Below, in pieces: positions 17,390-52,685 of a stretch of 64,000 nucleotides of DNA. Position 1 is the stretch's first letter; each line of letters opens with the position of its first letter. A program made the translations under genes and the position numbers. Origin of the DNA: a bacterium (GTDB lineage Bacteria > Pseudomonadota > Alphaproteobacteria > Rs-D84 > CACZYB01); NCBI GenBank assembly GCA_014803575.1, contig JAAVBO010000003.1:87165-151164 (forward strand), read 5' to 3'. Under the pieces are notes generated by a model. The model worked only from the letters and a program-made list of their open reading frames with translations, searched no databases and had not been told where the DNA came from.

Positions 17390-18367
17390 TTGAAAAAATT
17401 ATTTATAATTGTGACATTTTGTTTTATGCAAATGATGTTTTCTGATTTGTTATTTGCTTCGTCATTTCAGGATTTTTTTGTGGTGAAGGGTATTAGTGTT
17501 TCGCAAAGTGCCTCTTCTTCCAGTGAAGCAAAAAAGTTAGCGTTAAGCAGTGCAAGAGATGAGGCTTTTAATACTGTTTTAAAAAGATTGCTTGTGTCCA
17601 GTGATATTTCGAATGTTGTTGTGCCTGATAATTATAATATGGAAAAGTTTATACAGACAGTCAAACTTAATAATGAAAAGACTACTTCAACATCATATAG
17701 TGCGGTTGTTGATGTGCAAATAAATAAGAATTTGATGTCGGATTATCTTAAAAATCAGGGATTTAAAGTTTTGGAAGATCTTCCTCCGTCTACTTTTTTA
17801 ATGTTTTCCGATGGTTATGATTATGGATTTTCGGATGCTAACTATGGAAATGGAAATGTAGTTCCGTTTGCAGGTGTTGGATATTCGGATTTGTATAGTT
17901 ATGATGTGGATAGTGCAAGTATTGATGTATTTAAAAGTATGCTTTCAAAATATAATGCAAATAATGTTATAGTTGTTAAAGTGCAAAGTGCAGGTGATGT
18001 TTATAATGTTTCGTTTAAGGATAAGCTTTTGGGTATAAATAGCAGTTTTAAAACCAACTATGAACATTTTGTGACTGACTTAGTTCTTGCAATAAATGAT
18101 GCTTATAAAATGGCAACAGATGAAGGTGATTTTGGAAAGTCAATTTCTATGTTGGTGCCTATATTCGGGCTTTCTGATTGGATAGATATTGAAAAAATTA
18201 TTTCTAAAGTTTCATCTATAAAATCCTATGAAGTGCAGGCTTTAAAGTATAATAAAGCTCAGTTGAAATTGAAATATAATTATGATTTAGATTCGGTCAT
18301 AAATGCTTTGCGTAAAGCCGGATTGGATGTGCAAAATAAGAATACTTACTTGATTGTGAAACGATAA
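17390..18367 (+). CDS. Hypothetical exported protein
   Basis: N-terminal signal peptide. Its stop codon overlaps the hda start (ATAATG). Confidence 0.45.
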   Translation: MKKLFIIVTFCFMQMMFSDLLFASSFQDFFVVKGISVSQSASSSSEAKKLALSSARDEAFNTVLKRLLVSSDISNVVVPDNYNMEKFIQTVKLNNEKTTSTSYSAVVDVQINKNLMSDYLKNQGFKVLEDLPPSTFLMFSDGYDYGFSDANYGNGNVVPFAGVGYSDLYSYDVDSASIDVFKSMLSKYNANNVIVVKVQSAGDVYNVSFKDKLLGINSSFKTNYEHFVTDLVLAINDAYKMATDEGDFGKSISMLVPIFGLSDWIDIEKIISKVSSIKSYEVQALKYNKAQLKLKYNYDLDSVINALRKAGLDVQNKNTYLIVKR

Positions 18368-40222: not shown

Positions 40223-40834
40223 ATGACAATATATACATATTTAAGGGTATCAACAGACAAGCAGGATTATTATAATCAGCGGGTTGGAATTATTGATTTT
40301 TGTAATAAAAACGGATGGAAGATTGATAAAGAAATTATTGATGACGGTGTTAGTGGTGTAAAGGAACCTATTAACAGAAAACTTGGTAAATTATTAAAAG
40401 AAATAAAATGTGGTGATATTTTGGTGGTGTCGGAAATTTCACGGTTGGGAAGAAAGCTTTTTATGCTTTTTCGCATACTTGAAAATCTGCTTAATAATGG
40501 GGTTAATGTTTATTCCGTGAAGGATGGATATTCTCTTGATAATTCTATACAAAGTAAGGTGTTGGCGTTTGCTTTTGGAATGGCGGCTGAAATAGAGCGT
40601 GATATGATTTCGCTTAGGACGAAGGAGGCTTTGGCTAAAAAAAGGAAAGATGGAGTTGTCCTCGGACGACCAAAAGGTAGAAAAAATAAAAGGTTGAAGC
40701 TTTGTGATAAGGTTGAGGATATAAGGTATTTGTTGGATTTACAGATTCCGAAAATAAGAATTGCAAAAAAATTGAAAGTTTCAAAAAATACTTTGAATAG
40801 GTTTATTAAATTATATGATATAAAAAAATGTTAA
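40223..40834 (+). CDS. Small serine recombinase (Hin/Gin invertase / resolvase family)
   Basis: YLRVSTDKQ catalytic-Ser motif, GDILVVSEISRLGR and GRPKG motifs, and a C-terminal HTH (IAKKLKVSKNTLNRFIK). 203 aa. Confidence 0.85.
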   Translation: MTIYTYLRVSTDKQDYYNQRVGIIDFCNKNGWKIDKEIIDDGVSGVKEPINRKLGKLLKEIKCGDILVVSEISRLGRKLFMLFRILENLLNNGVNVYSVKDGYSLDNSIQSKVLAFAFGMAAEIERDMISLRTKEALAKKRKDGVVLGRPKGRKNKRLKLCDKVEDIRYLLDLQIPKIRIAKKLKVSKNTLNRFIKLYDIKKC

Positions 40835-40846
40835 AATTATATAAAA

Positions 40847-40868
40847 AATCCCCCGTACGGAGGATTTT
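40847..40868. terminator. Hairpin trailer shared with tRNA-Lys(TTT); bidirectional terminator
   Basis: aatcccccgtacggaggatt is the reverse-complement copy of the aatcctccgtatgggggatt element at 43325-43344 and 48985-49004. Confidence 0.55.
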
Positions 40869-40875
40869 CAAACTT

Positions 40876-40951
40876 TGGTGGGTGATTGGGGATTCGAACC
40901 CCAGACCCACTGATTAAGAGTCAGTTGCTCTACCAACTGAGCTAATCACCC
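40876..40951 (-). tRNA. tRNA-Lys (anticodon CTT)
   Basis: 76-nt cloverleaf read by hand: GGGTGAT acceptor, anticodon loop CTCTTAA, T-loop GGTTCGAATCC, and an encoded CCA. Confidence 0.85.
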
Positions 40952-41069
40952 AAAAATATTTTTTAAGTATAAATGCTTTTATTCATAAATTCAAGTATTT
41001 TTTATAAATAAAAATTTTTATTTGAAAGGGAAGTAAACAAAATATATTTCTTTACTTCCCATATTACCC

Positions 41070-41654
41070 TTACTTTTCAGACATTACTTCCTTTACCCAA
41101 GAGGAAAGATTTTTACCAGTTCTTCCATAGGTTACATAGGAATTTTGTTCTACATCACATCCTTTGCAAAGAGAAGTCAAATCTGTGACTGTTTTATCTT
41201 TTCCGCCACCGCCATGAGTTATAAAAGGAATAACTTTTTTTCCTGTCAAATCATTTTCAGATACAAAAGTTCTTACCGGTGTTGATGCGGTTCCCCACCA
41301 TACAGGAGTTCCGATGAATACTATATCATAATCGGCTATATTTTCTACCTTGGATTTAAGCGGTGGAAGAGTTCCATTACTTAATTCCTCTTTTGCTTTC
41401 TTTGTCTGTTCGTCATAATCACTTGGATAGGGTGTTTTCAGTTCTATACTAAACAAATCGCCATTAGTTTCCTTTTGTATTTGTTGGGCAATTTCCTTTG
41501 TATTTCCGCTTAACGAATAATAAGCAATCAATATTTTTGATTTATCAATATTTTGTGCACTGACTTGGGTTGATAAAAGCATACTTGCTAAACCTATTAC
41601 AAATTTTTTATTCATATTTTTCTCCTTTGTTTTGTTGATATAAGAAATCCGCAA
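41070..41654 (-). CDS. Flavodoxin-family protein with an N-terminal signal peptide
   Basis: ILIAYYSLSGNTKEIA flavodoxin FMN-binding N-motif and IPFITHGGGG. The likely start is MNKKFVIGLASMLL. Confidence 0.6.
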   Translation of the reverse strand: MRISYINKTKEKNMNKKFVIGLASMLLSTQVSAQNIDKSKILIAYYSLSGNTKEIAQQIQKETNGDLFSIELKTPYPSDYDEQTKKAKEELSNGTLPPLKSKVENIADYDIVFIGTPVWWGTASTPVRTFVSENDLTGKKVIPFITHGGGGKDKTVTDLTSLCKGCDVEQNSYVTYGRTGKNLSSWVKEVMSEK

Positions 41655-41754
41655 ATTTATTTTACAAGTTAAAGTTAACTCTAAGTCAAGTGTTTTTTAT
41701 TTTCTATTGACTTAGAGCCAACTTTAAGGCAATATATTAATCACAAAAAAGGAG

Positions 41755-42192
41755 ATGAAAATGACTTATACAATAGGACAAGTTGCGAAAAAAACAGGAC
41801 TTACAACTCATACTTTACGCTTTTATGATAAAGAAGGGCTTTTGCCGAATGTTAAGAAAAATCTGTCCGGAATAAGATATTTTTCTGATAATGACTTAAA
41901 TTGGATTGTTATATTAGAATGTCTAAAATCAACCGGACTTTCATTAAAAGATATAAAACATTACATAGATTTATATAAACTAGGTAACAAATCGTTAAAT
42001 GAAAGATTAGAAATTTTTAAAATACAAAAAAAGCGTGTAAAAGAACAAATTTCATTACTTAAAGAAAATATGAAAAAAATAGATTTTAAGATTAAATATT
42101 ATGAAGAGGCAATTAAAAATGGTGAAGAAAATATTTACGAAAAAAATACTTATTTAGCAAAAGAAAGAAATAGAGTTTTAAAATTAAAATAG
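41755..42192 (+). CDS. MerR-family transcriptional regulator
   Basis: YTIGQVAKKTGLTTHTLRFYDKEGLL: a MerR HTH. Confidence 0.8.
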   Translation: MKMTYTIGQVAKKTGLTTHTLRFYDKEGLLPNVKKNLSGIRYFSDNDLNWIVILECLKSTGLSLKDIKHYIDLYKLGNKSLNERLEIFKIQKKRVKEQISLLKENMKKIDFKIKYYEEAIKNGEENIYEKNTYLAKERNRVLKLK

Positions 42193-42208
42193 TTTATCAG
42201 AGGTTATT

Positions 42209-43171
42209 ATGAAAAAAAATTTTTTCAAAATTAGCACGTCATTATTCATACTTTTTGCCATATGTTTTTTTATATATGTATTTTTTATACCTGTCAGTAA
42301 AGATGAAAAAACAATAATTGAAATAAATCAGGGGGACAGATTGTCTGTTGTTGCGGATAAACTTTACAATAAAAAAATCATAAACTCAAAATTTTTATTT
42401 AAGCTTTGGATGTATCTTACATGGAACCAAAACAAAATAAAAATCGGGGAATATGAAATTTTGCCATCATCCACACTTAATCAGATAAAATCTGTTGTTA
42501 CAAGCGGACGAATGTATAATAAATATATCACTATTCCGGAGGGATTAACCGTAAAACAAATATATGAAATTTTAGATAGTCGCGACGATTTGGTTGGCAA
42601 AATTACAGAGGTCACAGAGGAGGGATTTCTACTTCCGCAAACATATGCATACAATAAAAATATTTCCAAAAATGACTTAATTATTAAAATGAAAAAGGCA
42701 ATGGAGGAAACTATTGATAAAGAATGGGAAAAACGAGATGATGGACTTCCGCTTAAAAATAAAAAAGAAGCTATAATACTTGCTTCCATAGTGGAAAAAG
42801 AAACCGGTATTCCGGAGGAAAGAGGTTTGGTTGCATCCGTTTTCATAAATCGTCTTAACAATAATTGGCGTATTCAAAGTGATCCTACCGTAATTTATAC
42901 TCTTACAAATAAGTATGGAAATATGATGGGTCGAAAACTTTATAAAAAGGATTTAGAGGCGGATACTCCTTACAATACTTATAAAATAAAGGGGCTTCCG
43001 GTTGGTGCAATTGCCAATCCCGGACTTGAAAGTATAAAAGCAGTCCTTCATCCTGTAAAATCAGATTATTTTTATTTTGTTGCTGATGGAAGTGGCGGAC
43101 ATAAATTCGCAACTACCCTTGAAGAACACGAAAAAAACAGGGCAAAATGGAAAGAAATAAGAGATAAATAA
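42209..43171 (+). CDS. mltG: Endolytic murein transglycosylase MltG (YceG family)
   Basis: N-terminal TM, a YceG-like domain, and conserved IPEG...ASIVEKET...PTVIYT motifs. Confidence 0.8.
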   Translation: MKKNFFKISTSLFILFAICFFIYVFFIPVSKDEKTIIEINQGDRLSVVADKLYNKKIINSKFLFKLWMYLTWNQNKIKIGEYEILPSSTLNQIKSVVTSGRMYNKYITIPEGLTVKQIYEILDSRDDLVGKITEVTEEGFLLPQTYAYNKNISKNDLIIKMKKAMEETIDKEWEKRDDGLPLKNKKEAIILASIVEKETGIPEERGLVASVFINRLNNNWRIQSDPTVIYTLTNKYGNMMGRKLYKKDLEADTPYNTYKIKGLPVGAIANPGLESIKAVLHPVKSDYFYFVADGSGGHKFATTLEEHEKNRAKWKEIRDK

Positions 43172-43241
43172 TATTTTTATAAAAAATGCTTGACTATATA
43201 CTTTTTTGTAGTATTATTTATTGCTATAAAGCATTAGCTTT

Positions 43242-43317
43242 GGGTGTTTAGCTCAGCTGGTAGAGCAACTGACTTTTAATCAGTGGGTCACAGGTTCAAG
43301 TCCTGTAACACCCACCA
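43242..43317 (+). tRNA. tRNA-Lys (anticodon TTT)
   Basis: 76 nt: GGGTGTT acceptor, anticodon loop CTTTTAA, T-arm GGTTCAAGTCC, and an encoded CCA. Confidence 0.85.
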
Positions 43318-43352
43318 AAGTTTGAAAATCCTCCGTATGGGGGATTTTTTTT
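43309..43352 (+). repeat. Left 44-bp direct repeat (tRNA-Lys 3' end plus trailer hairpin); attL-like
   Basis: 43 of 44 positions match 48969-49012. Confidence 0.7.
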
Positions 43353-43384
43353 CTGAGAAAAATAAATATATAGGAGGAGTTAAA

Positions 43385-44100
43385 ATGGCAGATAATAAAA
43401 AATCGTTTTTGAAATATCTAAAACAAGAAAAATTACAAGGAAAAATCAGAAGTTATGAATTATATTTTAAAAGAAAACTTACTGAATTGGAACAAACTAT
43501 TTTTGGTATTACAGGAAAACAGCTTTTTGAAATTGATAATGTTGCCGATTTAGAAAAATTATTAGAAGAATTAAGTGAAGAAAAAAATGGCGTGATTATT
43601 CCTCTAAATATGGCCATGGTATTCCCAATGCCATAGTTGCTACACATTATAGAAATTTTTTAAAATCAAAAAAAATTATTAAAGATATTGAAGATGATAC
43701 AATCAAAATAAGTAAAAAAACTGAAAGAAAAGCCTTTATTAAATTAAGGTTAGGACAATCAACGCTTCGTAAAAAAATTCTTAAAAAAAGAAAAGAATGT
43801 GAAATTTGTAAAATTAAAAATAAAAAACTATTAATTATTAGTCATATAAAACCTTGGGCTAAATCTAACGATTTAGAAAAACTTAGTGAAGACAATATTT
43901 TATTATTATGTCCTATGCATGATGCATTATTTGATAAAGGTTTAATTTCTTTTGATGAAAATGGTAAAATCTTAATTTCATCTAAACTTGATAAGAATGA
44001 ATTGAAATTGATGAATATTGATAAAGGAAGTAATATAAAAATAAATTCAGAAGAGCAAATTGAATTTTTAAAATATCATAGAAAAAAATATTTTCCTTAA
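43385..44100 (+). pseudogene. HNH nuclease (HNH_2-like), frameshifted
   Basis: The N-terminal part (MADNKKSF...) ends in frame at 43636. The HNH core (CEICKIKNKKLLIISHIKPWAKS...LLCPMHDALFDKG) continues in another frame with no ATG until 43915. A shift of one base at ~43600-43625 explains this. Confidence 0.5.
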
Positions 44101-44255
44101 ATAACTTCAATATCTTTCAATATCTATAAATACCTCACTAAAACCTACCATTAATTTAAATTGTAAAGTAGGTTTCTGGGGGGCTTTCATACCATTTTCT
44201 TTTTTCAATGAATGGGCGTAGGTTGTGGAAAGATTAAGGATTTTGTATTTGTAAT

Positions 44256-44916
44256 TTACTTTGCACCCATACTTGAAAGCTCTGATTTCTCATCATTATT
44301 ATTGGCTTTCACAAAGCCGTAATCAAAGAAAATGCTTGGGCTGAAATCACGCAAAAGTATATTCTGACTTTTAAAAATATCGCTCATGCTAAACTTCAAA
44401 TCGTTCCTTATGTAAAAACCGCTGTCCCCCGGTAATACCATCATTGCTAAATCCACGAACGGAGGCCTCACTTCCAATATAAAATCCGTCGGAGGAGAAA
44501 AGTTCATCACGGCTGTATTGCCCGTCAAATGTAGTTGCCAAATTTACAAAACCGAAATTAAATTCCTTGTCAATATAGGCGTTTGTGATAGTGTTAAGAA
44601 GTTTGTTTATCTCATCTACGGTCAAGCATTTATTAAGAAAAGGTTTTGCAAGTTTGTTGATTTCGCCAGAGGAAAGTTTTGTATTCCCATCAAATTCAAT
44701 GCTGTTGATTTGAACGCAGTGTGATGATTTTTGAGGGGCAGTTTCCTCCTGTTGTTGAGGTTGTTGTGTTACGGGTTTTGTGATTGCTCGTTCAAGCTCC
44801 TGCCTTCTAAATCCCGCATCAATTAATTGTTGTTGTGAACGTTGAATTTGTTCAGGAGTTTGCGAAAACACTACCCTCGCACAGAATACAAAAATAACTA
44901 AAAATACCTTTTTCAT
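44256..44916 (-). pseudogene. Remnant of a TpsB (ShlB/FhaC-type) two-partner-secretion transporter, truncated and frameshifted
   Basis: Signal peptide plus a POTRA-like region (VQINSIEFDGNTKLSSGEINKLAKPFLNKCLTVDEINKL). Only ~260 aa span two frames. No TpsA gene is nearby. Confidence 0.45.
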
Positions 44917-45297
44917 AATGGGAAAATTATACTATTTGCGATTTTTAATGCAAGGGGAAAATTGAAAGTAAATCGGTATTTATATTTTGTTCTTGACTTT
45001 TTGGAGAAAATGTAGTATTTATATATAAATCGTGAATAATAAATGAAAATAAAGCTTCGTAATGTGTGTATTGAATTTTATTGATATTAAAACTTTTGTT
45101 AATATCTCAACTCCACTTGTAATAAATTGTTTACAAGAAATGAAAGGAGAAATTATGGGAATATTAATGAGAAGTGTAGAGTTGTACCTATTGCTGTGGA
45201 GTATATGATATTTACATATATTTTAATATCTTTTTCTTTATATACATAGAAGAGTCAATAGGAGATAATTTTATATTATCTGACTCCACACCATTTT

Positions 45298-45966
45298 TTA
45301 ATCAGGAAAGTTCTCAATAAAATCTTTAAGTTCTTCGAGTATAATAAAAGCATTTGTTGTTGGATTATTTAAGTCTATTTCTTTATTATCAATAATACAG
45401 TGTTCTTTCCTAATTTTTTTAGCGTTTTCAATTGCTATTGATATATTATTTTGCATTTTAGAAAAATCTAATTCTTTTTCATAATTTAGTAAATATTTTT
45501 TTAATTTACAAGGACAGTCATCTTTAGATATTTCAGTTGGACAATATACAAAATGTAATAATGCCCAAAATTCTATATTAGGAATACTATATATAAAATG
45601 TATACCATGTTCTTTTGCTTTCTTTATAGCGTTTTGTAATTTAGTTTTATGAGCATTAGTTGTTCTATCATCTTCATCAATTACAACAAAAACTTTATCA
45701 TGTTCATTTTTATCTTTAGTTTCTTCAATTGCTCTATCAGTTAATTTTTCACAATCTTGATCACTTCCTGGTCTTGGAATATCTATTTGTCCCAAAATAG
45801 TTCTTCGTTTATTTTCGTTATCAGGATAAATTTCTCTTACAAGAAAATTTTTTAAATCAGTTAAATATTTTGATTCTGTAACTTTCCCTTCAACAAAAAA
45901 ATCAACACGGGGTCTTTGAATTTTGAGTTTGTTAAAATATTGATCTCTTTTATTTTTTTTAGGCAT
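45298..45966 (-). CDS. RloB-like (TOPRIM-like) protein, partner of the AAA_21 ATPase (AbiLii-like)
   Basis: N-terminal motif RVDFFVEGKVTESKYL (an EGxxTE-type motif) and an IEFWALLHF motif, both recalled as typical of the RloB family. Confidence 0.6.
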   Translation of the reverse strand: MPKKNKRDQYFNKLKIQRPRVDFFVEGKVTESKYLTDLKNFLVREIYPDNENKRRTILGQIDIPRPGSDQDCEKLTDRAIEETKDKNEHDKVFVVIDEDDRTTNAHKTKLQNAIKKAKEHGIHFIYSIPNIEFWALLHFVYCPTEISKDDCPCKLKKYLLNYEKELDFSKMQNNISIAIENAKKIRKEHCIIDNKEIDLNNPTTNAFIILEELKDFIENFPD

Positions 45967-45968
45967 TA

Positions 45969-47330
45969 TTATTCATCCATTAATTTTTCTAATTCTCTAA
46001 TATCTCCTAGAAAGGGAATTGCTCCAAATCTACCTTTTAAATAACCGGATTCATAATCATAATTATTTCTTATATCTTTGAATGATGATAATGGATAAAC
46101 TGTTGATACTCCAGAAATATCTTTTTCTATAAACCAAATTTCATCCCGTCTTAATATATCACTTTTTAATAAATTAACATCATGGGTTGTACATATAAGT
46201 TGAGCTCCACCTTTGTTTATCTTTGGATTATTAAAAGCTTGAACCAATCTTTTAACAAGAATAGGATGTAGAGATCTTTCTATTTCATCACAAATAAATA
46301 TTCCACCATTTATAAAAGCAGGATAGAACATAATTATTTTACTTAAAAAAGCTAATGTACCGTCACTTTCTTGATTATTACTTAAAGGATATTCATTACC
46401 ATCTTTACCAATATGATAGTATTTTAACTGATAATCATATTTTGGAGGTTCAAAATTTTCTATTTGCACACTTTTAAATTTTGCAGTTATTTTTTTATTA
46501 AATATATCAAATAATTCCTTATTAAGAGATTGTGTTTCTTCATCAATTTTAATTTGTTCTATTTCAAATCTAGAAATACCTAAATCAATAGAATTAAGCC
46601 ATTGACTAATTTTATTAATTTCTCGCTTATTATTATATAATTCTACTAATCTATTATCAGGAATTTGAAATTCATTACAGAAGATAAAACATTTATTAAA
46701 AAACTTATGTATTCTTGTATAAGGAATTATATTTCTTTTTGTTAATAGTTCTAAGACTAAAACATCTTGTCTTTTAGATATAGTATCCTTAATATAATCT
46801 TTATCATAATTAGAGATATCACTGTCCTCATAAACTATATTTCCATTTTCTCTATTGTATAGTATTTTATTATTAGATGTTAAAGTTTCTGTTTTTATAA
46901 TTTGTTTGTTAAATATTAATTTATATATTATAATTTTCTTATCTAAGAAAAACTCAAATTCGAGAAGAGAATCTTTAGATTTACTTTCTTCATCAAGGAT
47001 GAAAGGAACATATGCAGATAATTTTGATAAATTTTTTTCTGAATTATTTAAAAATTGTTTCATTTTTAAAAATAATGATAATAATTTAGATTTACCAGAA
47101 GCATTTGCTCCATAAAAAATAGAAACAGGTAATACTTTATCTTCATCTTCTTTTGTTTCTATTAAATTCCAAAATTCTTTTTGTGAAGAGAAACGAGTTT
47201 CTTCAGAAAATAAAATATGATTTTCATCTTTGAAAGAAAAATGGTTAGAAAAAGATATTCTAATTATATTAGATCTTTCTTTTTTCATAGTATATCTCCG
47301 AATTTTAGTTAACTGATATTTATAATACAT
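45969..47330 (-). CDS. AAA_21-type ATPase (AbiLi / RloC-like abortive-infection ATPase)
   Basis: Walker A GANASGKSK, ICDEIERSLHP (Walker B / D-loop) and LICTTHDVNLL (H-loop). 453 aa. It lies 2 bp upstream of the RloB-like gene. Confidence 0.65.
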   Translation of the reverse strand: MYYKYQLTKIRRYTMKKERSNIIRISFSNHFSFKDENHILFSEETRFSSQKEFWNLIETKEDEDKVLPVSIFYGANASGKSKLLSLFLKMKQFLNNSEKNLSKLSAYVPFILDEESKSKDSLLEFEFFLDKKIIIYKLIFNKQIIKTETLTSNNKILYNRENGNIVYEDSDISNYDKDYIKDTISKRQDVLVLELLTKRNIIPYTRIHKFFNKCFIFCNEFQIPDNRLVELYNNKREINKISQWLNSIDLGISRFEIEQIKIDEETQSLNKELFDIFNKKITAKFKSVQIENFEPPKYDYQLKYYHIGKDGNEYPLSNNQESDGTLAFLSKIIMFYPAFINGGIFICDEIERSLHPILVKRLVQAFNNPKINKGGAQLICTTHDVNLLKSDILRRDEIWFIEKDISGVSTVYPLSSFKDIRNNYDYESGYLKGRFGAIPFLGDIRELEKLMDE

Positions 47331-47496
47331 ATATTTTTAACGAAATCAATAAAATTTGCATTTTTTTTGCAAACATTGTCATAAAAAATTCTTATATAAA
47401 AAATTTTATTTACATTTGTATATATTTGTATTGACAATGCAAATAAAATAAGATATACATAAAATTATGTATATAAAATTATATAAGGATACAAAA

Positions 47497-47673
47497 ATGA
47501 TTAACATAAATATAAGAATTGATGAGCAATTAAAAAAGGATACTGAGGTTATATTGGATAGTTTAGGATTGACTATATCTGATGCAGTAAGGATTTATTT
47601 TTCGCAGATTCGAAATACAAGGAGTATTCCTTTTATGTTGAAAAGTAATGAAGAGCCTCAAGATAAGGAGTAA
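47497..47673 (+). CDS. RelB/DinJ-family antitoxin (orphan)
   Basis: MININIRIDEQLKKDTEVILDSLGLTISDAVRIYFSQIRNTRSIPF aligns with the DinJ N-terminus. No intact toxin gene follows. Confidence 0.55.
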   Translation: MININIRIDEQLKKDTEVILDSLGLTISDAVRIYFSQIRNTRSIPFMLKSNEEPQDKE

Positions 47674-47950
47674 AATATGAAAAGACAAGAAAAATGTCCA
47701 AAGTGTAAATAAGTTCATGAAATAACAAATATATGGAAAGATTTATGTCCGCATTGTAAATTAAACATTTCTAAATTTGTATTGGTAGTCTTGTCTTTTT
47801 GGATATTTCTTATTCTAGGAGCTATTAAAAACAAATAAAACACCAGCTCCTGTATGGGCATTATGGAGTTTTATAATAAGTCTTATTATTATGATTTACG
47901 ACTTGAATTATATTTCAAAGATGAAGAAGAAATAATATATAAGGTATAAT

Positions 47951-48836
47951 ATGGAAAATTTACATAAATATCTGGAAAACAATAAAGTATTTCTTGCAAA
48001 GGTAATTCATTTTATTGATTATGCAGATACTGCACTTGATAAAAAATGTCTGGAAGATTTAAAAAATAGTAAATATAAAGGGCATTATGAAATAAATAAC
48101 TTTAAGAAAAGATGGAAAAGTTTATGGTTTTGTAGCTAAGGCTAAGCATAAATTATTAATAGAAAAATTTGGTGCAAATAAAAAAGATAGTCTTGTTAAA
48201 AATTGTCTAGTAATTTTTATCTCTGATGCAGCTCAAGTTGTTGGATATTATAAAGATGCAACAATATATAGAAATTCTCAATCAAATGAATTTTCTGATT
48301 ATTATTTTTTTGAGGCGGATGTAGAAAATACTTTCATTATATCTCCTTATAACAGATGGGATATAAAATTTTCGGATTTAAATTTTGGACAAGCTCAAAG
48401 AAAATATGTAGATGAGAAAAATAGAAAGGCAGTATCTGATATTTTAAAAAAATTAGAAAATAATGGTAAAGAAAATAATTTATATCAGGAAACATCAGAA
48501 TTAACAACTAAGGAAAAAAAGTTTTAGTTCCTCACCTAAAATGTGAAGGTAGAATATCTCAAAACATAGTTAATAAAATAAAAAAAGAAAAAGGATATAC
48601 TTGTGAAGTGTGTGGTTTTAATTTTTCTGTCCATTATAAACATTTTGAAATCTAATTTTATAGAATTGCATCATTTAAATATGTATAAAAATCTAAGAGA
48701 AAATGAAACTAGAAAATTAAATAAAAATGATTTTGCTGTATTATGTTCCAATTGTCATAGAATGATACATAAATTAAAATCAATTGAAGGAAATAAGAAG
48801 GATATAGAAAAATTAAAAAAACTTTATAAAAAATAA
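47951..48836 (+). pseudogene. Decayed HNH endonuclease gene (possibly a former type IV / McrA-like restriction enzyme) with multiple frameshifts
   Basis: The HNH core is split across frames: CEVCGFNF...HYKHFEI (stop), then ELHHL...NDFAVLCSNCHRMIH. The N-terminal ~190 aa are also split across at least two frames. Confidence 0.45.
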
Positions 48837-48968
48837 GAATTAAGAAATTTAATATATATCTTCTTTCCTATACCAGTCAGCACTAAACGAAAATTCTGAA
48901 AATGGAATAATGGGAGAAAAACAATAGGTTTGTGGATAATATAGAAAAGTTAGAGAATGGTTCACAAT

Positions 48969-49012
48969 CACCCACCAAAGTTTGAAAATCCTCCGAATGG
49001 GGGATTTTTTTT
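48969..49012 (+). repeat. Right 44-bp direct repeat (orphan tRNA-Lys 3' end plus trailer hairpin); attR-like
   Basis: A copy of 43309-43352 with one mismatch (a at 48996 versus t at 43336). No tRNA body lies upstream. Confidence 0.7.
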
Positions 49013-49192
49013 GAAAGACTATGTTTGAAATGTTTTAAAAATTAATGATTGTTCTAATTTTGTTCTTGACTTTTTTACAAAAATAGTGTATAGTATTTTC
49101 TGACTAATGGGATAAGTCTCTCTCCACTATTAGTTATTGATTTTTTAATTTTAATACTCACATCTCTGTGGGTATTTTTTCTATTTAAAGGA

Positions 49193-49384
49193 GTGATAAT
49201 GAAAAAAATATTTGAATTTTTATTAACTGCACTTAAAAAGTGTTTTGTGAAACCTGATGGTCAAATAGGACTTAAACGAATATTGGGAACTTTGTTGGTT
49301 TTAAGTTATATCGGTGTTTCCATATATACAAATTCGTTTGAAAATCCGGTTGCAATATTAACCTTATTATTTTCAGGAGTGTAA
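49193..49384 (+). CDS. Small membrane protein, holin-like
   Basis: 63 aa with two hydrophobic segments, lying immediately upstream of the spanin-like and endolysin genes. Confidence 0.3.
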   Translation: MIMKKIFEFLLTALKKCFVKPDGQIGLKRILGTLLVLSYIGVSIYTNSFENPVAILTLLFSGV

Positions 49385-49386
49385 AT

Positions 49387-49578
49387 ATGAAGAAAGTTTA
49401 TTGTATTATGGCTGGGATTTTGGGAACCCTGCTTGTTTATTTTAAAGGAGAAGAAAATGGCGTGTCGAAACAAAAAGCAAAGCAAACTAAAAAAATTCTT
49501 AAAAAAGTTAATGCGAAAACTAAAATTAAAACTCGTGTTAATAATGTTGGTGTTGACAAGTTGCACTACCGAGATTGA
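49387..49578 (+). CDS. i-spanin-like protein (N-terminal TM plus a Lys-rich periplasmic segment)
   Basis: MKKVYCIMAGILGTLLVYF TM helix followed by a charged segment. The putative lipoprotein gene overlaps its 3' end in the +1 frame. Confidence 0.25.
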   Translation: MKKVYCIMAGILGTLLVYFKGEENGVSKQKAKQTKKILKKVNAKTKIKTRVNNVGVDKLHYRD

Positions 49579-49687
49579 TAGTTTTTGTTCCATATATGAA
49601 CCTATACTTCCAAGCAGACAGGATACTTTGGAAACTTCGCGTCATCTTAATCTTTATTATGAAATTTATGTGAGTGAATGCAAATGA
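49511..49687 (+). CDS. o-spanin-like small lipoprotein overlapping the i-spanin-like gene
   Basis: MRKLKLKLVLIMLVLTSC has lipobox LTSC. The ORF overlaps the 49387 gene out of frame (Rz/Rz1-like arrangement), and its stop overlaps the endolysin start (ATGCAAATGA). Confidence 0.3.
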   Translation: MRKLKLKLVLIMLVLTSCTTEIDSFCSIYEPILPSRQDTLETSRHLNLYYEIYVSECK

Positions 49688-50094
49688 ATTCTTTGATAAA
49701 AAAGTATGAGGGATGTTTCCTTGTTGCCTATAAATGTCCGGCCGGTGTTTGGACTATTGGTTATGGAAATACAAATGTTGATGGAGTGCCTGTTTATGAA
49801 GGAATGAGTATTACACAGGATAGAGCGGAGGTACTTCTTTCTGAATGGATAGAAAATGAAGTTAAGCCATACATTTCCGACCTTAATTTAAAAGGAAAAC
49901 AGCTTGAAGCTATAATTTCCCTTGTTTATAATGTTGGAGGTCCGGCATTTAAAAAATCCAAACTTAGACAGGCAATACTTAACAAAGATTATGAGTCCGT
50001 GTGTCGCGAATGGGATTTTGGTTTTAAATCCAATCTTAAAGGTATATATAAAAGAAGGGTTGAAGAACTTTTTCTTTTCATAAGTGAAATATAA
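49678..50094 (+). CDS. Phage-type lysozyme (GH24 endolysin)
   Basis: YEGCFLVAYKCPAGVWTIGYGNT ... LVYNVGGPAFKKSKLRQAILNKDYESVCREW. A Cys occupies the position of the conserved second catalytic Asp (YKC versus YKD). Confidence 0.75.
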   Translation: MQMNSLIKKYEGCFLVAYKCPAGVWTIGYGNTNVDGVPVYEGMSITQDRAEVLLSEWIENEVKPYISDLNLKGKQLEAIISLVYNVGGPAFKKSKLRQAILNKDYESVCREWDFGFKSNLKGIYKRRVEELFLFISEI

Positions 50095-50150: not shown

Positions 50151-50987
50151 ATGACAAAGATATTAAAAAGGATAGAAGATTTAATGCTATCCGATGCTTA
50201 TACAAACTTATCAAATCCTAAACATAAAGAAGTAACGGATGAGGTAAGCAAGTATTTCAAAGAGAATTTTAAAGATGGTCCAAATAGCAAAAAGAAATAT
50301 AAGTGGGTATGTGGTCCAAAAGATAATTGTGGATATTGTGCATTATTAAACGGGAAGATGTTGGATAATATGGAAGATTTTGAGGTATGTCCTCCAGTTC
50401 ATCCTAATTGTAAATGTGAGATTATAGAGGTATGGGTTGAGGAAGAGGATGATGAGGAAATAAAAATTAGTGATAAAGGTATAGAATTTTTGAAAGAACA
50501 AGAAGGCAGTATAACTTATCAAAAGAAAATAGGATCGTATAAAGATGGGATGTTTCGTGTATATAAAGATAATGCTGGATATGATACTATTGGATACGGA
50601 CATAAATTAAAAGAAAATGAAAAAAATAGAGGAGTTTTCAAGAATGGTATTACAGAAGAAGAAGCAGAAAAACTGTTACTTAAAGATTACCAAGTTGCTA
50701 TTGATGATTATAATAAATATATAAAAAGAAAAGACTATACTCAAAATCAAGTTGACGCAATTTTATCTTTCTTGTATAATGCAGGAGGTGGTGTCAATGT
50801 TGGAAAATCCAATACTGTATACTTATTAAAAAATAAATTAGATAAACATCCTGTCAGTAAGAAGATATTGGAAAAAGAATTTAAGGAATGGAATACATCA
50901 GATGGAGAATATAATGATGTTTTAAACAAAAGGAGAAATGCAGAATGGGAATTATTTACAAAGGGAAAATACAAAGTAAAAAAATAA
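50151..50987 (+). CDS. Fusion of a MuF-like Cys-motif module to a GH24 lysozyme (paralog of 4543..5502); no signal peptide
   Basis: CGYCALLNGKML...VCPPVHPNCKCEI, then FLKEQEG...VYKDNAGYDTIGYGHKL and ILSFLYNAGGG lysozyme motifs. Confidence 0.55.
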   Translation: MTKILKRIEDLMLSDAYTNLSNPKHKEVTDEVSKYFKENFKDGPNSKKKYKWVCGPKDNCGYCALLNGKMLDNMEDFEVCPPVHPNCKCEIIEVWVEEEDDEEIKISDKGIEFLKEQEGSITYQKKIGSYKDGMFRVYKDNAGYDTIGYGHKLKENEKNRGVFKNGITEEEAEKLLLKDYQVAIDDYNKYIKRKDYTQNQVDAILSFLYNAGGGVNVGKSNTVYLLKNKLDKHPVSKKILEKEFKEWNTSDGEYNDVLNKRRNAEWELFTKGKYKVKK

Positions 50988-51469
50988 TAATTTTTGTATT
51001 ACTACTTATAATTTCTTCTGTCTCAGTAAAAGCTGAAGACTGTAAAGAAGAGGATTATGATAGATTTTTTAATTTTATAGAAAAAAAAGTCTATTGCGAT
51101 TTGGAAGGTGATGGTAACGGTTGGGATAAATTATGTAATGATCAAATAAATTGTTATGGCTTAGGAGCGGGGGCAATAGATTGTATTGGAACAGAATTAA
51201 AAGCTTGTGATAAACTATTGAATGAAGAATATCAGAAAGCAATGGAACGAGCAAAAGAGTATGATGATTGTGAAAGAGATAAACCTTATGGTAAAAAATG
51301 CCATTGGGAACGTTTAAAACAAGCAGAACTTAGTTGGATAAAATTTAGAGATGAAGATTGTGAAGTTGATGTTAATTTTTACGCAAGTGTTAGTAGTCTT
51401 GATATTGTTGTTTGTCGTAGAGAAAAAACAAAAGAAAGAATAAAACAATTAAGACAGTTTTTTAAATAA
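50945..51469 (+). CDS. Periplasmic DUF1311 / LprI-like (lysozyme-inhibitor family) protein
   Basis: Signal peptide, then CDKLLNEEYQKAMERAK ... LKQAELSWIKFRDEDCE, matching the DUF1311 pattern L..aQraW..yRD..C as I recall it. The start overlaps the preceding gene by 43 nt. Confidence 0.5.
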   Translation: MGIIYKGKIQSKKIIIFVLLLIISSVSVKAEDCKEEDYDRFFNFIEKKVYCDLEGDGNGWDKLCNDQINCYGLGAGAIDCIGTELKACDKLLNEEYQKAMERAKEYDDCERDKPYGKKCHWERLKQAELSWIKFRDEDCEVDVNFYASVSSLDIVVCRREKTKERIKQLRQFFK

Positions 51470-51546
51470 AATTTTCATCAAATCAAATAGGCAATGACAG
51501 AAATAATTGGCGACAAGATAAACTATTATCAATTATAGAATAAAAA

Positions 51547-51566
51547 AAAGGGAGATTACTCTCCTT
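51547..51566. terminator. Bidirectional terminator (ggaga-ttac-tctcc)
   Basis: A hairpin flanked by an A8 run and T-rich sequence, between convergent genes. Confidence 0.5.
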
Positions 51567-52077
51567 TATATCTGTTTGCTGTAACATTAGTCACTTTACA
51601 AAAAGCAGAAAAGGTTTCATGTGTGTAGCAATCATTTTTTATATATTGTTTTTTACCGGGATAATAAATTGCCATTATTATATCATACATATATTTTTCA
51701 GGAGCATTATATAATTTTAGATAAGGTCTGGATGGAGGATATGATGATATATCCCTATTTGCAGAATAATCACATTCAAGGTAAATATATTCATCAGTTA
51801 TGTCATCTATATCACATGTAAAATGTTCAATATGGGAATAATCAAGAAATGTATCAATATTTATTATTTTTATTTTATCATCCATTTTAGTTATTGCTAA
51901 ACTCATTGATTCAGGATCATCTGAAGTATAAACTCCAAAAAAATCATCAATGGATAAAACTTTCTCCTCTTCCGCCCAAACAGGAACAGAAAGAAGCAAA
52001 AATAATATAGCAAAAATCTTTTTCATAAAAATCTCCTTATTATGAATAATGATACCAGAGCAGGGTATTAAATGCAA
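51556..52077 (-). CDS. Hypothetical secreted protein
   Basis: Signal peptide MKKIFAILFLLLSVPVWA; the true start is likely at ~52026. No recognisable domain. Confidence 0.4.
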   Translation of the reverse strand: MHLIPCSGIIIHNKEIFMKKIFAILFLLLSVPVWAEEEKVLSIDDFFGVYTSDDPESMSLAITKMDDKIKIINIDTFLDYSHIEHFTCDIDDITDEYIYLECDYSANRDISSYPPSRPYLKLYNAPEKYMYDIIMAIYYPGKKQYIKNDCYTHETFSAFCKVTNVTANRYKGE

Positions 52078-52606: not shown

Positions 52607-52608
52607 AG

Positions 52609-52685
52609 TGGTGCGCCATAGAGGAGTCGAACCTCTAACCTTCTGATCCGTAGTCAGATACTCTATCCAATTGAGCTAATGGCGC
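52609..52685 (-). tRNA. tRNA-Arg (anticodon ACG)
   Basis: 77 nt: GCGCCAT acceptor, anticodon loop CTACGGA, T-arm GGTTCGACTCC, and an encoded CCA. Confidence 0.8.

What the first reader, a model, noticed from the sequence alone, without database searches (positions are those of the whole stretch)
43309..49012. 5.7-kb defence island at tRNA-Lys(TTT) bounded by 44-bp direct repeats; the orphan tRNA 3' fragment matches the CTT isoacceptor better
The tRNA 3' end plus its trailer hairpin (cacccaccaaagtttgaaaatcctccgtatgggggatttttttt) is repeated at 48969-49012 with one mismatch. An orphan T-arm/acceptor fragment (ggttcacaatcacccacca) precedes the right copy. Its acceptor half (AATCACCCACCA) is identical to that of tRNA-Lys(CTT) at 40876-40951 rather than to tRNA-Lys(TTT). 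This implies that integration or recombination history involved both tRNA-Lys genes. The cargo is anti-phage and toxin-antitoxin genes, several of them decayed, and no integrase remains.
Basis: seen in the sequence. Interest (0 to 1): 0.6.

Follow-up and report, generated by a model that had tools for sequence, protein, structure and literature searches.

The report
Old tRNA-Lys island scar, mosaic cargo
The repeat is real, but it marks an old, integrase-less variable region downstream of a lysine tRNA gene whose gene content has been swapped and deleted piecemeal, which makes it an ordinary kind of bacterial genome hotspot rather than one recently inserted 5.7-kb island.

Summary
The 44-nt repeat (43309-43352 / 48969-49012, one mismatch) is real. 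A third copy follows tRNA-Lys(CTT). The orphan shares an exact 31-mer with the CTT gene's 3' end. The supposed T-arm piece is not above chance.

The same orphan, with about 100-130 nt of its upstream flank, sits at the orthologous place in conspecific strains (L182-L186) and in a sister species (L087). It therefore predates that split.

The DNA between the repeats is not one island:
- The ShlB stub is the remnant of a two-partner-secretion (CDI-like) locus that is intact in relatives.
- The AbiL / RelB / HNH-pseudogene cassette is one of at least three alternative fillings of a slot between the ShlB promoter region and the orphan.
- No integrase and no empty site were found.

In each genome the orphan's terminator matches that genome's own tRNA-Lys trailer. 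This indicates gene conversion among the copies, and it best explains the CTT-type acceptor.

Verdict: a decayed tRNA-linked genomic island that now serves as a defence and toxin hotspot, in an uncultured low-GC alphaproteobacterium. It is a new member of a known kind and of modest interest.

The parts
40223..40834 (+). Small serine recombinase (Resolvase domain). It ends 8 nt from the CTT trailer. It is a neighbour and is not shown to act on the repeats.
   Evidence: Pfam Resolvase E=6e-34. Absent at this place in L085. A 46% homologue in L004 lies beside a CTT-type 3' fragment. None of 80 metagenome homologues has a tRNA-Lys link.
40843..40951 (-). tRNA-Lys(CTT) gene (40876-40951) plus its native terminator (40843-40875). 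This is the third copy of the repeat and the likely donor of the orphan's acceptor bases.
   Evidence: Exact 31-mer shared with the orphan.
43242..43317 (+). tRNA-Lys(TTT) gene, immediately downstream of mltG. The MltG-TTT adjacency is conserved in relatives.
43309..43352 (+). Left repeat: the last 9 nt of the tRNA (CACCCACCA) plus the intrinsic terminator (11-bp stem, 4-nt loop, T8).
   Evidence: Homology to L083 ends exactly at 43352.
43385..44100 (+). HNH_2 restriction-endonuclease-like gene, split by a frameshift near 43620-43640.
   Evidence: PADLOC HNH E=1e-23 and Pfam HNH_2 E=1.5e-11 on the joined translation.
44138..44916 (-). ShlB/TpsB pseudogene. Residues ~120-413 are deleted (~896 bp) and there is a frameshift near 44200. 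It is the remnant of a two-partner-secretion locus.
   Evidence: Pfam POTRA_2 and ShlB. Nucleotide homology to full-length ShlB of L087, L090, L092 and L183. tblastn.
44962..45018 (+). D1a: a promoter-like repeat with an 18-nt core, ATTTTGTTCTTGACTTTT. It marks the left breakpoint of the swapped cassette.
   Evidence: Homology to L087 ends at 45018.
45298..45966 (-). AbiLii (RloB-like), intact.
   Evidence: Pfam RloB E=1.5e-32. PADLOC AbiLii E=8e-17. 87% amino-acid identity to L092.
45969..47330 (-). AbiLi (AAA_21 ATPase), intact.
   Evidence: PADLOC AbiLi E=9e-74. Pfam AAA_21.
47467..47673 (+). RelB/DinJ-type antitoxin with no toxin gene downstream.
   Evidence: Pfam RelB E=7.5e-13. Sequence 47674-47950 read directly.
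47951..48836 (+). HNH nuclease pseudogene, spread over at least 3 reading frames.
   Evidence: Weak Pfam HNH hit, E=8e-4 and below the gathering score, on the joined translation.
48838..48964 (.). Non-coding flank conserved together with the orphan in other genomes.
   Evidence: 78% identical to L087 5497-5628. About 96% identical to L183 from 48872 onward.
48965..49012 (+). Orphan: a 13-nt CTT-type acceptor 3' strand (CAATCACCCACCA) plus an intact terminator hairpin and T8.
49035..49091 (+). D1b: the second copy of the promoter-like repeat, upstream of the 61-aa / 63-aa / lysozyme genes. Homology to L087 resumes here.

Best explanation
The orphan is an old attR-like scar. It is a copy of the last 13 nt of a tRNA-Lys plus that gene's native terminator, and it marks the far end of a long-lived variable region that begins right after the tRNA-Lys(TTT) terminator.

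Inferred origin: a two-partner-secretion (CDI-like) island integrated at tRNA-Lys(TTT) before this species split from its sister species, and its integrase has since been lost.

Shown since then:
1. A slot between the ShlB promoter region and the orphan's flank has been filled with different defence cassettes in different genomes. The fillings are AbiL+RelB+HNH here, AbiL in L092, AAA_14/DUF4143+GIY-YIG+AbiE in L087, and only a DUF4143 remnant in L183.
2. In this strain the tpsA and toxin/immunity part was deleted. That left a ShlB stub and an HNH_2 pseudogene.

Inferred mechanisms:
- Cassettes are exchanged by homologous recombination in the conserved flanks.
- The three copies of the tRNA-Lys 3' end plus terminator are kept alike within a genome by short-tract gene conversion. 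This gave the orphan the CTT-type acceptor in this species.
- Today the orphan most likely works only as an intrinsic terminator between the cassette and the downstream lysozyme operon promoter.
- AbiL is the only intact defence system in the interval.
For: The orphan is old and orthologous:
- Window 48838-49012 aligns to L087 5497-5677 at 78%. The L087 copy lies between different genes, AbiEi on the left and a 485-aa gene on the right.
- Conspecific loci L182-L186 are 96-99% identical in the flanks and carry the same orphan.

The content is mosaic:
- ShlB is full-length (559 aa) in L087, L090, L092 and L183. The window copy lacks ~896 bp.
- L083 shows TTT directly followed by a 2225-aa TpsA. 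L083 is colinear with L090, where TpsA, small ORFs and ShlB converge.
- Cassette breakpoints are 45018|45019 and 48837|48838 against L087, and 44967|44968 and 48871|48872 against L183.
- L092 continues through AbiLii into AbiLi at 88.8%.

Concerted evolution:
- The window's TTT, CTT and orphan copies all read AAAATCCTCCG.
- L083 TTT and the L087 orphan both read AAAAATCCTTCTG, while L083 CTT reads AAAAATCCTCCG.
- Whatever the ancestral state was, one lineage changed the tRNA trailer and the orphan in the same way.
- The orphan shares an exact 31-mer with the window's CTT gene, although its flank has diverged 22% from L087.

Terminator function: the hairpin and a T7-T9 run are intact in every orphan, whereas the acceptor part has decayed in L087 (CACCTACTA).

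The trailer is native to tRNA-Lys in this lineage. Its stem covaries in L085 and L003.
Against: - No integrase or integrase remnant was found in any genome, and no empty site was seen. Origin by site-specific integration is therefore inferred only from geometry.
- The repeat holds just 9-13 nt of the tRNA and 35 nt of trailer. This is unusual for tRNA-targeting integrases, which usually cross over within the anticodon loop or T-loop (my recollection of Williams 2002, not checked here).
- The L087 orphan's acceptor discriminates poorly between the isoacceptors (10/13 to TTT, 9/13 to CTT). The direction of conversion is therefore not settled.
- Strains L182-L184 have an orphan with 2-3 private changes (TTTAAGAAATCC), and their tRNA trailers could not be read.
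- TTT-TpsA (L083) and ShlB-orphan (L087) lie on different contigs of the same MAG. Their contiguity rests on colinearity with L090.
- All the data come from metagenome assemblies.
Confidence: 0.65

Rival explanations
1. A single 5.7-kb defence island integrated as a unit at tRNA-Lys(TTT) through an attP that carried a CTT-type tRNA fragment. It then lost its integrase and decayed in place.
For: - Direct repeats lie at both ends, and the left boundary is exactly at the end of the terminator.
- GC is low, 0.20-0.27, over the AbiL part, against about 0.30-0.37 in core genes.
- Several genes in the interval are pseudogenes.
Against: - The orphan and its flank are present in conspecific and sister genomes that have different content.
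- The ShlB stub is orthologous to a full-length resident gene in relatives and has core-like GC of 0.35-0.40.
- Homology breakpoints fall inside the interval, not at the repeats.
- No phage, plasmid or viral contig carries the att core or the cargo.
Confidence: 0.1
2. The orphan is what remains of a third, complete tRNA-Lys gene (a duplicated CTT-type gene) whose 5' part decayed or was deleted. On this view it is not an integration scar.
For: - The acceptor 3' strand is CTT-type and is followed by the native terminator.
- GGTTCA upstream resembles the start of a T-loop.
- The two functional tRNA-Lys genes are themselves paralogues with the same trailer.
Against: - The upstream 70 nt show no similarity to tRNA-Lys above shuffles, in either the window or L087.
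- There is no tRNA covariance-model hit at E<=10.
- The conserved upstream flank (48838-48964) is unrelated to tRNA sequence.
Confidence: 0.12
3. The three copies are recombination sites of the neighbouring small serine recombinase (40223-40834). It would invert CTT x TTT or CTT x orphan, or delete TTT x orphan, and would homogenise the sites as it did so.
For: - The recombinase gene ends 8 nt from the CTT copy.
- The sites are dyad-symmetric hairpins.
- A 46%-identical recombinase in L004 also lies next to a CTT-type tRNA-Lys 3' fragment.
- The CTT copy is inverted relative to the other two.
Against: - Among 80 metagenome loci with homologues at 49-61% identity, none has a tRNA-Lys gene or a tRNA-Lys 3' fragment nearby.
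- The relative orientation of recombinase and fragment differs between the window and L004.
- The order CTT(-)...MltG-TTT(+) is the same in the window, L083 and L085, so no inverted isomer was seen.
- L085 lacks the recombinase at this place.
Confidence: 0.05
4. The repeat is a coincidental or generic terminator with no historical link to the tRNA gene.
For: Intrinsic terminators are common and palindromic.
Against: - 0 matches are expected by chance against 3 observed, and the hairpin core occurs nowhere else in 64 kb.
- The orphan includes 13 nt of the tRNA acceptor strand with the CCA end.
Confidence: 0.01

Closest known systems
tRNA-gene-associated genomic islands with direct repeats made of the tRNA 3' end (the class catalogued by Williams 2002 and the Islander database; recalled from my own knowledge, the paper was not held)
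   Same: - The variable DNA begins right after a tRNA gene.
- It ends with a direct copy of the tRNA 3' end.
- It carries accessory genes of lower GC.
   Different: - There is no integrase.
- The repeat is mostly post-tRNA terminator: only 9-13 nt of the tRNA and 35 nt of trailer.
- The distal copy is conserved across species while the content between the repeats turns over.
- No empty site was observed.
Defence-system hotspots in bacterial pan-genomes (Hochhauser et al. 2023, PMC10121019)
   Same: - A fixed chromosomal position between core genes is filled with different defence systems in different strains.
- That paper reports 18 E. coli hotspots within tRNA loci and some hotspots with no detectable mobile element.
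   Different: - The host here is an uncultured low-GC alphaproteobacterium.
- The slot sits inside a decayed secretion and toxin island.
- It is delimited by a ShlB promoter region and an orphan tRNA terminator rather than by two core genes.
AbiL (AbiLi ATPase + AbiLii RloB-like) abortive-infection system
   Same: It is a two-gene operon. AAA_21 ATPase: PADLOC AbiLi E=9e-74. RloB protein: AbiLii E=8e-17, Pfam RloB E=1.5e-32.
   Different: It is only about 30% identical to the nearest plasmid-borne homologues. Function was not tested.
Two-partner secretion / contact-dependent inhibition loci (TpsB/ShlB + TpsA with C-terminal toxin and immunity arrays)
   Same: Relatives carry TpsA (TPS and Fil_haemagg_2 domains), a string of small ORFs, and ShlB at this locus.
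   Different: - In the window only a broken ShlB remains and tpsA is absent.
- In relatives tpsA and tpsB are convergent rather than in one operon.

Membership tests
tRNA-integrated genomic island (integrase type) | Lies immediately 3' of, or within the 3' end of, a tRNA gene. | tested here: met
   The interval starts at 43353, right after the tRNA-Lys(TTT) terminator. Homology with L083 stops at 43352.
tRNA-integrated genomic island (integrase type) | Flanking direct repeats that contain the tRNA 3' segment. | tested here: met
   44-nt repeat, 43/44 identical, 0 expected by chance. Only 9-13 nt of it are tRNA.
tRNA-integrated genomic island (integrase type) | Integrase or recombinase gene inside the island. 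| tested here: not met
   All ORFs in 43353-48968 were assigned and none is a recombinase. Relatives L083, L087 and L182-184 also show none in the interval.
tRNA-integrated genomic island (integrase type) | Presence/absence polymorphism as a unit (an empty site in relatives). | tested here: not met
   No relative has the TTT trailer joined to 49013+. The orphan is present in every syntenic relative, with different content. Sampling is small.
tRNA-integrated genomic island (integrase type) | Excision as a circle. | not testable with these tools
   This needs raw reads or PCR.
Defence island / defence hotspot | Clustered known defence genes. | tested here: met
   AbiLi and AbiLii are intact. An HNH_2 REase-like pseudogene, a second HNH pseudogene and RelB are also present.
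Defence island / defence hotspot | The same locus holds different systems in related genomes. | tested here: met
   The window and L092 carry AbiL. L087 carries AAA_14/DUF4143 + GIY-YIG + AbiEii/AbiEi. L183 carries only a DUF4143 remnant.
AbiL | Adjacent AAA ATPase (AbiLi) and RloB-like (AbiLii) genes. | tested here: met
   PADLOC E=9e-74 and E=8e-17. The genes are 2 nt apart on the minus strand.
AbiL | Protects against phage. | not testable with these tools
   The host is uncultured and no assay is available.
RelBE-type toxin-antitoxin pair | Antitoxin gene followed by a cognate toxin gene. | tested here: not met
   RelB is present. Downstream 47674-47950 holds only a broken zinc-ribbon-like small ORF, as read from the sequence.
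Two-partner secretion / CDI locus | Intact TpsB transporter and TpsA exoprotein. | tested here: not met
   ShlB lacks residues ~120-413 and is frameshifted. There is no TpsA in the interval. The locus is intact in relatives.
Serine-invertase switch (Gin/Hin-like) | Recombinase next to a segment flanked by inverted sites, with both orientations present in populations. | tested here: not met
   A Resolvase-domain protein lies beside a 112-nt, 88% inverted repeat. That repeat consists of the two tRNA genes. Only one orientation is seen in the window, L083 and L085. Homologues show no tRNA association.

The most novel reading that the evidence does not exclude
The three copies of the tRNA-Lys 3' end plus terminator are working recombination sites for the adjacent small serine recombinase, or for another enzyme supplied in trans. 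That enzyme would invert or delete the DNA between the copies and keep them homogenised. This would be a recombinase that uses a tRNA terminator hairpin as its site and drives cassette turnover at this locus.
Probability: 0.05. Interest if true: 0.6.

Novelty: new member of a known kind. Interest (0 to 1): 0.27.

Why it matters
This is a clear worked example of a general caution. A tRNA gene plus a matching downstream repeat does not prove that the DNA between them arrived as one unit.

Here the scar outlived its island across a species split. It was kept similar to the living tRNA genes by gene conversion, and probably kept intact because it still terminates transcription. Meanwhile defence cassettes and toxin modules were swapped or deleted around it.

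Island-prediction tools that delimit islands by tRNA-fragment repeats would call a false 5.7-kb unit here. The locus also documents defence-cassette turnover (AbiL versus AbiE/GIY-YIG/AAA_14) in a poorly known gut alphaproteobacterial lineage. None of this changes current understanding.

Tried and rejected
1. T-arm or tRNA-body similarity upstream of the orphan. Local alignment scored no better than shuffles, and there was no tRNA covariance hit.
2. A phage or element carrying the att core. There was no exact match to CACCCACCAAAGTTTGAAAA in viral contigs. The interval has no blastn match in phages. The best AbiLi plasmid homologues are only ~30% identical.
3. A known RNA family in the interval or in the conserved 5' region after D1b. 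Rfam found nothing apart from the three tRNAs.
4. The genome-contig scan with an MltG alignment. It was saturated by distant alphaproteobacteria and gave only two useful relatives, L003 and L004. Neither is syntenic downstream of the TTT gene.
5. An inversion between the two inverted tRNA-Lys genes, as a way to bring a CTT-linked island next to the TTT gene. The gene order is identical in the window, L083 and L085, and nothing supports a flip. It is not strictly excluded.
6. A family-wide link between the serine recombinase and tRNA-Lys. No link was found in 80 loci.
7. More distant ShlB homologues (L093-L097). Their contexts are unrelated and uninformative.
8. Reading Williams 2002 to check integrase sublocation classes. 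The paper is not held.
Full report
**1. The observation**

ARAGORN and Rfam place tRNA-Lys(TTT) at 43242-43317 (+), tRNA-Lys(CTT) at 40876-40951 (-), and tRNA-Arg(ACG) at 52609-52685 (-).

- The last 9 nt of the TTT gene plus 35 nt of trailer (43309-43352) recur at 48969-49012, 43/44 identical.
- A 42-nt pattern for this sequence matches three times in 64 kb, against 0 expected. The third match is the trailer of the CTT gene.
- The trailer folds into an 11-bp hairpin with a 4-nt loop followed by T6-T8, a typical intrinsic terminator. All differences among the three copies lie in the loop or in the length of the T-run.
- The hairpin core occurs nowhere else in the window. It is specific to tRNA-Lys and is not a generic terminator.
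- Left of the shared core the orphan reads CAAT, like the CTT gene. The TTT gene reads GTAA. This gives a 31-nt exact identity between the orphan and the CTT gene.
- The claimed T-arm fragment (GGTTCA) is not supported. The 70 nt upstream of the core align to tRNA-Lys no better than shuffles (p 0.28-0.49), and the tRNA covariance model finds nothing.

**2. Cargo**

| Coordinates | Strand | Content |
|---|---|---|
| 43385-44100 | + | HNH_2 restriction-like gene with one frameshift |
| 44138-44916 | - | ShlB/TpsB pseudogene lacking residues ~120-413 |
| 45298-45966, 45969-47330 | - | intact AbiLii/RloB and AbiLi/AAA_21 |
| 47467-47673 | + | RelB antitoxin without a toxin |
| 47951-48836 | + | HNH gene broken over at least 3 frames |

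There is no recombinase in the interval. GC is 0.20-0.27 over AbiL and 0.35-0.40 over ShlB. Core genes are about 0.30-0.37.

**3. Host and relatives**

MltG homologues identify an uncultured low-GC alphaproteobacterium known only from metagenomes.

- L001 and L002 are 100% identical to the window and add nothing independent.
- Useful relatives are:
  - the sister-species MAG GCA_051885355.1, about 85-87% nucleotide identity in core regions, as loci L083 and L087;
  - conspecific strains L182-L186, 96-99% identical in the flanks, found through the exact 63-aa protein encoded at 49387-49578;
  - L092 and L090, found through ShlB;
  - L085, L003 and L004, which are more distant.

**4. The trailer is native to tRNA-Lys**

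Both tRNA-Lys genes of L083, the CTT gene of L085 and the TTT gene of L003 have the same AAAGTTT...hairpin trailer, and the stem covaries among them. Homology between the window and L083 stops exactly at 43352. Homology with L085 stops at 40841, the end of the CTT trailer. The DNA downstream of both tRNA-Lys genes is therefore variable.

**5. The orphan is old**

- Window 48838-49012 aligns with L087 5497-5677 at 78%. There the sequence lies between an AbiEi-like gene and two unknown genes.
- L182-L186 carry the orphan with its flank from 48872 onward.
- The orphan therefore predates the split from the sister species. It cannot be the footprint of a recent 5.7-kb insertion.

**6. The content is mosaic**

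- In L083 the TTT terminator is followed by a 2225-aa TpsA.
- L083 is colinear with L090, where TpsA, several small ORFs and a convergent full-length ShlB follow one another.
- L087, L092 and L182-184 have full-length ShlB that is orthologous to the window stub. The window copy has lost ~896 bp.

The slot between the ShlB upstream region and the orphan flank holds different content in each genome:

| Genome | Content of the slot |
|---|---|
| window | AbiL + RelB + HNH pseudogene |
| L092 | AbiL, colinear with the window at 88.8% to the contig end |
| L087 | AAA_14/DUF4143 + GIY-YIG + AbiEii/AbiEi |
| L183 | 383 bp with a DUF4143-like remnant |

- Breakpoints are 45018|45019 and 48837|48838 against L087. 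They are 44967|44968 and 48871|48872 against L183.
- DNA to the right of the orphan also varies:
  - L087 has 2.9 kb extra right after the orphan.
  - The window's 50170-52037 segment is absent from L087.
  - L183 matches the window up to 50454 and again from 51496, and differs in between.

**7. Concerted evolution**

- In the window all three copies read AAAATCCTCCG.
- In the sister genome the TTT trailer and the orphan both read AAAAATCCTTCTG, while its CTT trailer reads AAAAATCCTCCG.
- Whatever the ancestral state was, one lineage changed a tRNA trailer and the orphan identically. Because the flank is orthologous, this points to gene conversion rather than independent insertion.
- The 31-nt exact identity with the CTT gene includes a base that is A in the window and L085 CTT genes but C in L083. 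The same explanation fits that identity.
- The L087 orphan acceptor (CTAACACCTACTA) is decayed and only weakly TTT-like (10/13 to TTT, 9/13 to CTT). The direction of conversion therefore remains open.

**8. Mechanism proposed**

- Shown:
  - the scar is old;
  - the content is mosaic;
  - cassettes are swapped at fixed breakpoints;
  - the TPS locus has been deleted in this strain;
  - the repeat copies are homogenised within each genome.
- Inferred:
  - the scar was created by site-specific integration of a TPS/CDI island at tRNA-Lys(TTT);
  - cassettes are exchanged by homologous recombination in the conserved flanks;
  - the orphan persists because it terminates transcription ahead of the D1b promoter of the 61-aa / 63-aa / lysozyme operon. 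The hairpin and T-run are intact in all orphans although the acceptor part decays.

**9. Rivals**

- A single-unit island is contradicted by sections 5 and 6.
- A decayed third tRNA gene finds no support in the upstream sequence.
- The neighbouring serine recombinase (40223-40834) is intriguing, because a 46% homologue in L004 also sits beside a CTT-type 3' fragment. However, 80 metagenome homologues show no link to tRNA-Lys. Orientation differs between the two cases. No inverted isomer was seen.
- Chance is excluded.

**10. Comparison with what is known**

The locus has the geometry of a tRNA-associated genomic island. It fails that family's tests for an integrase and for unit-wise presence or absence. 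It behaves like the defence hotspots described in E. coli, 18 of which lie in tRNA loci and some of which lack a detectable mobile element (PMC10121019). AbiL membership is met at the HMM level. The RelBE and TPS systems are incomplete here.

**11. Limits**

- All sequences are metagenome assemblies.
- The species appears in only a few samples.
- No reads were available to test for excision or inversion.

**Verdict:** a real feature, correctly observed and over-interpreted as a unit. It is a new member of a known kind, with interest about 0.27.

Noticed in passing
window 44962-45018 and 49035-49091; L087 1335-1391 and 8612-8668; L092 ~1152-1210: A second pair of direct repeats (D1) looks like a promoter (TTGACT, a spacer, then GTATAnT). 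Its 18-nt core occurs exactly twice in the window. Both copies sit at orthologous places in the sister genome. Inter-genome homology breaks about 20 nt after D1a and resumes at D1b. D1a is missing in conspecific L183. It may be the footprint of a homologous (Campbell-type) insertion or of promoter capture.
   Followed up: partly
window 40223-40834; L004 17900-18487 (-) and ~17700-17760 (-): A small serine recombinase ends 8 nt from the tRNA-Lys(CTT) terminator. A 46%-identical homologue in a different species lies 140 nt upstream of an orphan CTT-type tRNA-Lys 3' fragment with a terminator. 80 other homologues show no tRNA-Lys association.
   Followed up: partly
window 50151-51469; L182/L183 8765-10149: A protein with a MuF-like N-terminus and a lysozyme C-terminus is followed by an LprI lysozyme-inhibitor gene. 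In conspecific strains the N-terminus is conserved up to window 50454. After that the C-terminal domain (Pesticin-like) and the following gene differ. The sister genome lacks the module. It looks like a polymorphic toxin and immunity swap.
   Followed up: partly
window 52607-52685; L182 10729-16192; L087 10473-12285: The 3' side of tRNA-Arg(ACG) is another variable spot. In conspecific L182 homology stops 6 nt into the tRNA 3' end, and genes for DUF5906, DUF3768 and a KAP NTPase follow. In L087 1.8 kb with two unknown genes lies between LMWPc and the tRNA.
   Followed up: partly
window 44124-44967 vs L183 5358-7102: The ShlB stub is only ~89.5% identical to ShlB of conspecific strains, while the flanks to the right of the orphan are 96-99% identical. 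Either the pseudogene is evolving under relaxed constraint, or this segment was imported from a more distant lineage together with AbiL.
   Followed up: no
window 49193-50094: Two small genes of about 61-63 aa each, an overlapping ORF with a lipoprotein-like signal (LTSC), and a phage-type lysozyme resemble a phage lysis cassette. They are conserved in all syntenic relatives and lie directly downstream of the orphan and D1b.
   Followed up: no
L087 8730-8760: The sister genome has a further hairpin, TTCCTCCGTTAGGGGGAGTTTTTTTTT, in the 5' region of the 61-aa gene. It resembles the tRNA-Lys terminator but lacks the acceptor part. The window has no such hairpin at the corresponding place.
   Followed up: no
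L002 (window 40915-48994) and L099: The Logan contigs of SRR11425449 break inside the CTT tRNA and inside the orphan. The break inside the orphan coincides with the exact 31-mer it shares with the CTT gene's 3' end, which can break a k=31 assembly. The break inside the CTT tRNA (40915) is not at that 31-mer; the likely cause (inferred) is that the CTT tRNA sequence is identical in related species such as L085. The breaks are not evidence of rearrangement.
   Followed up: yes
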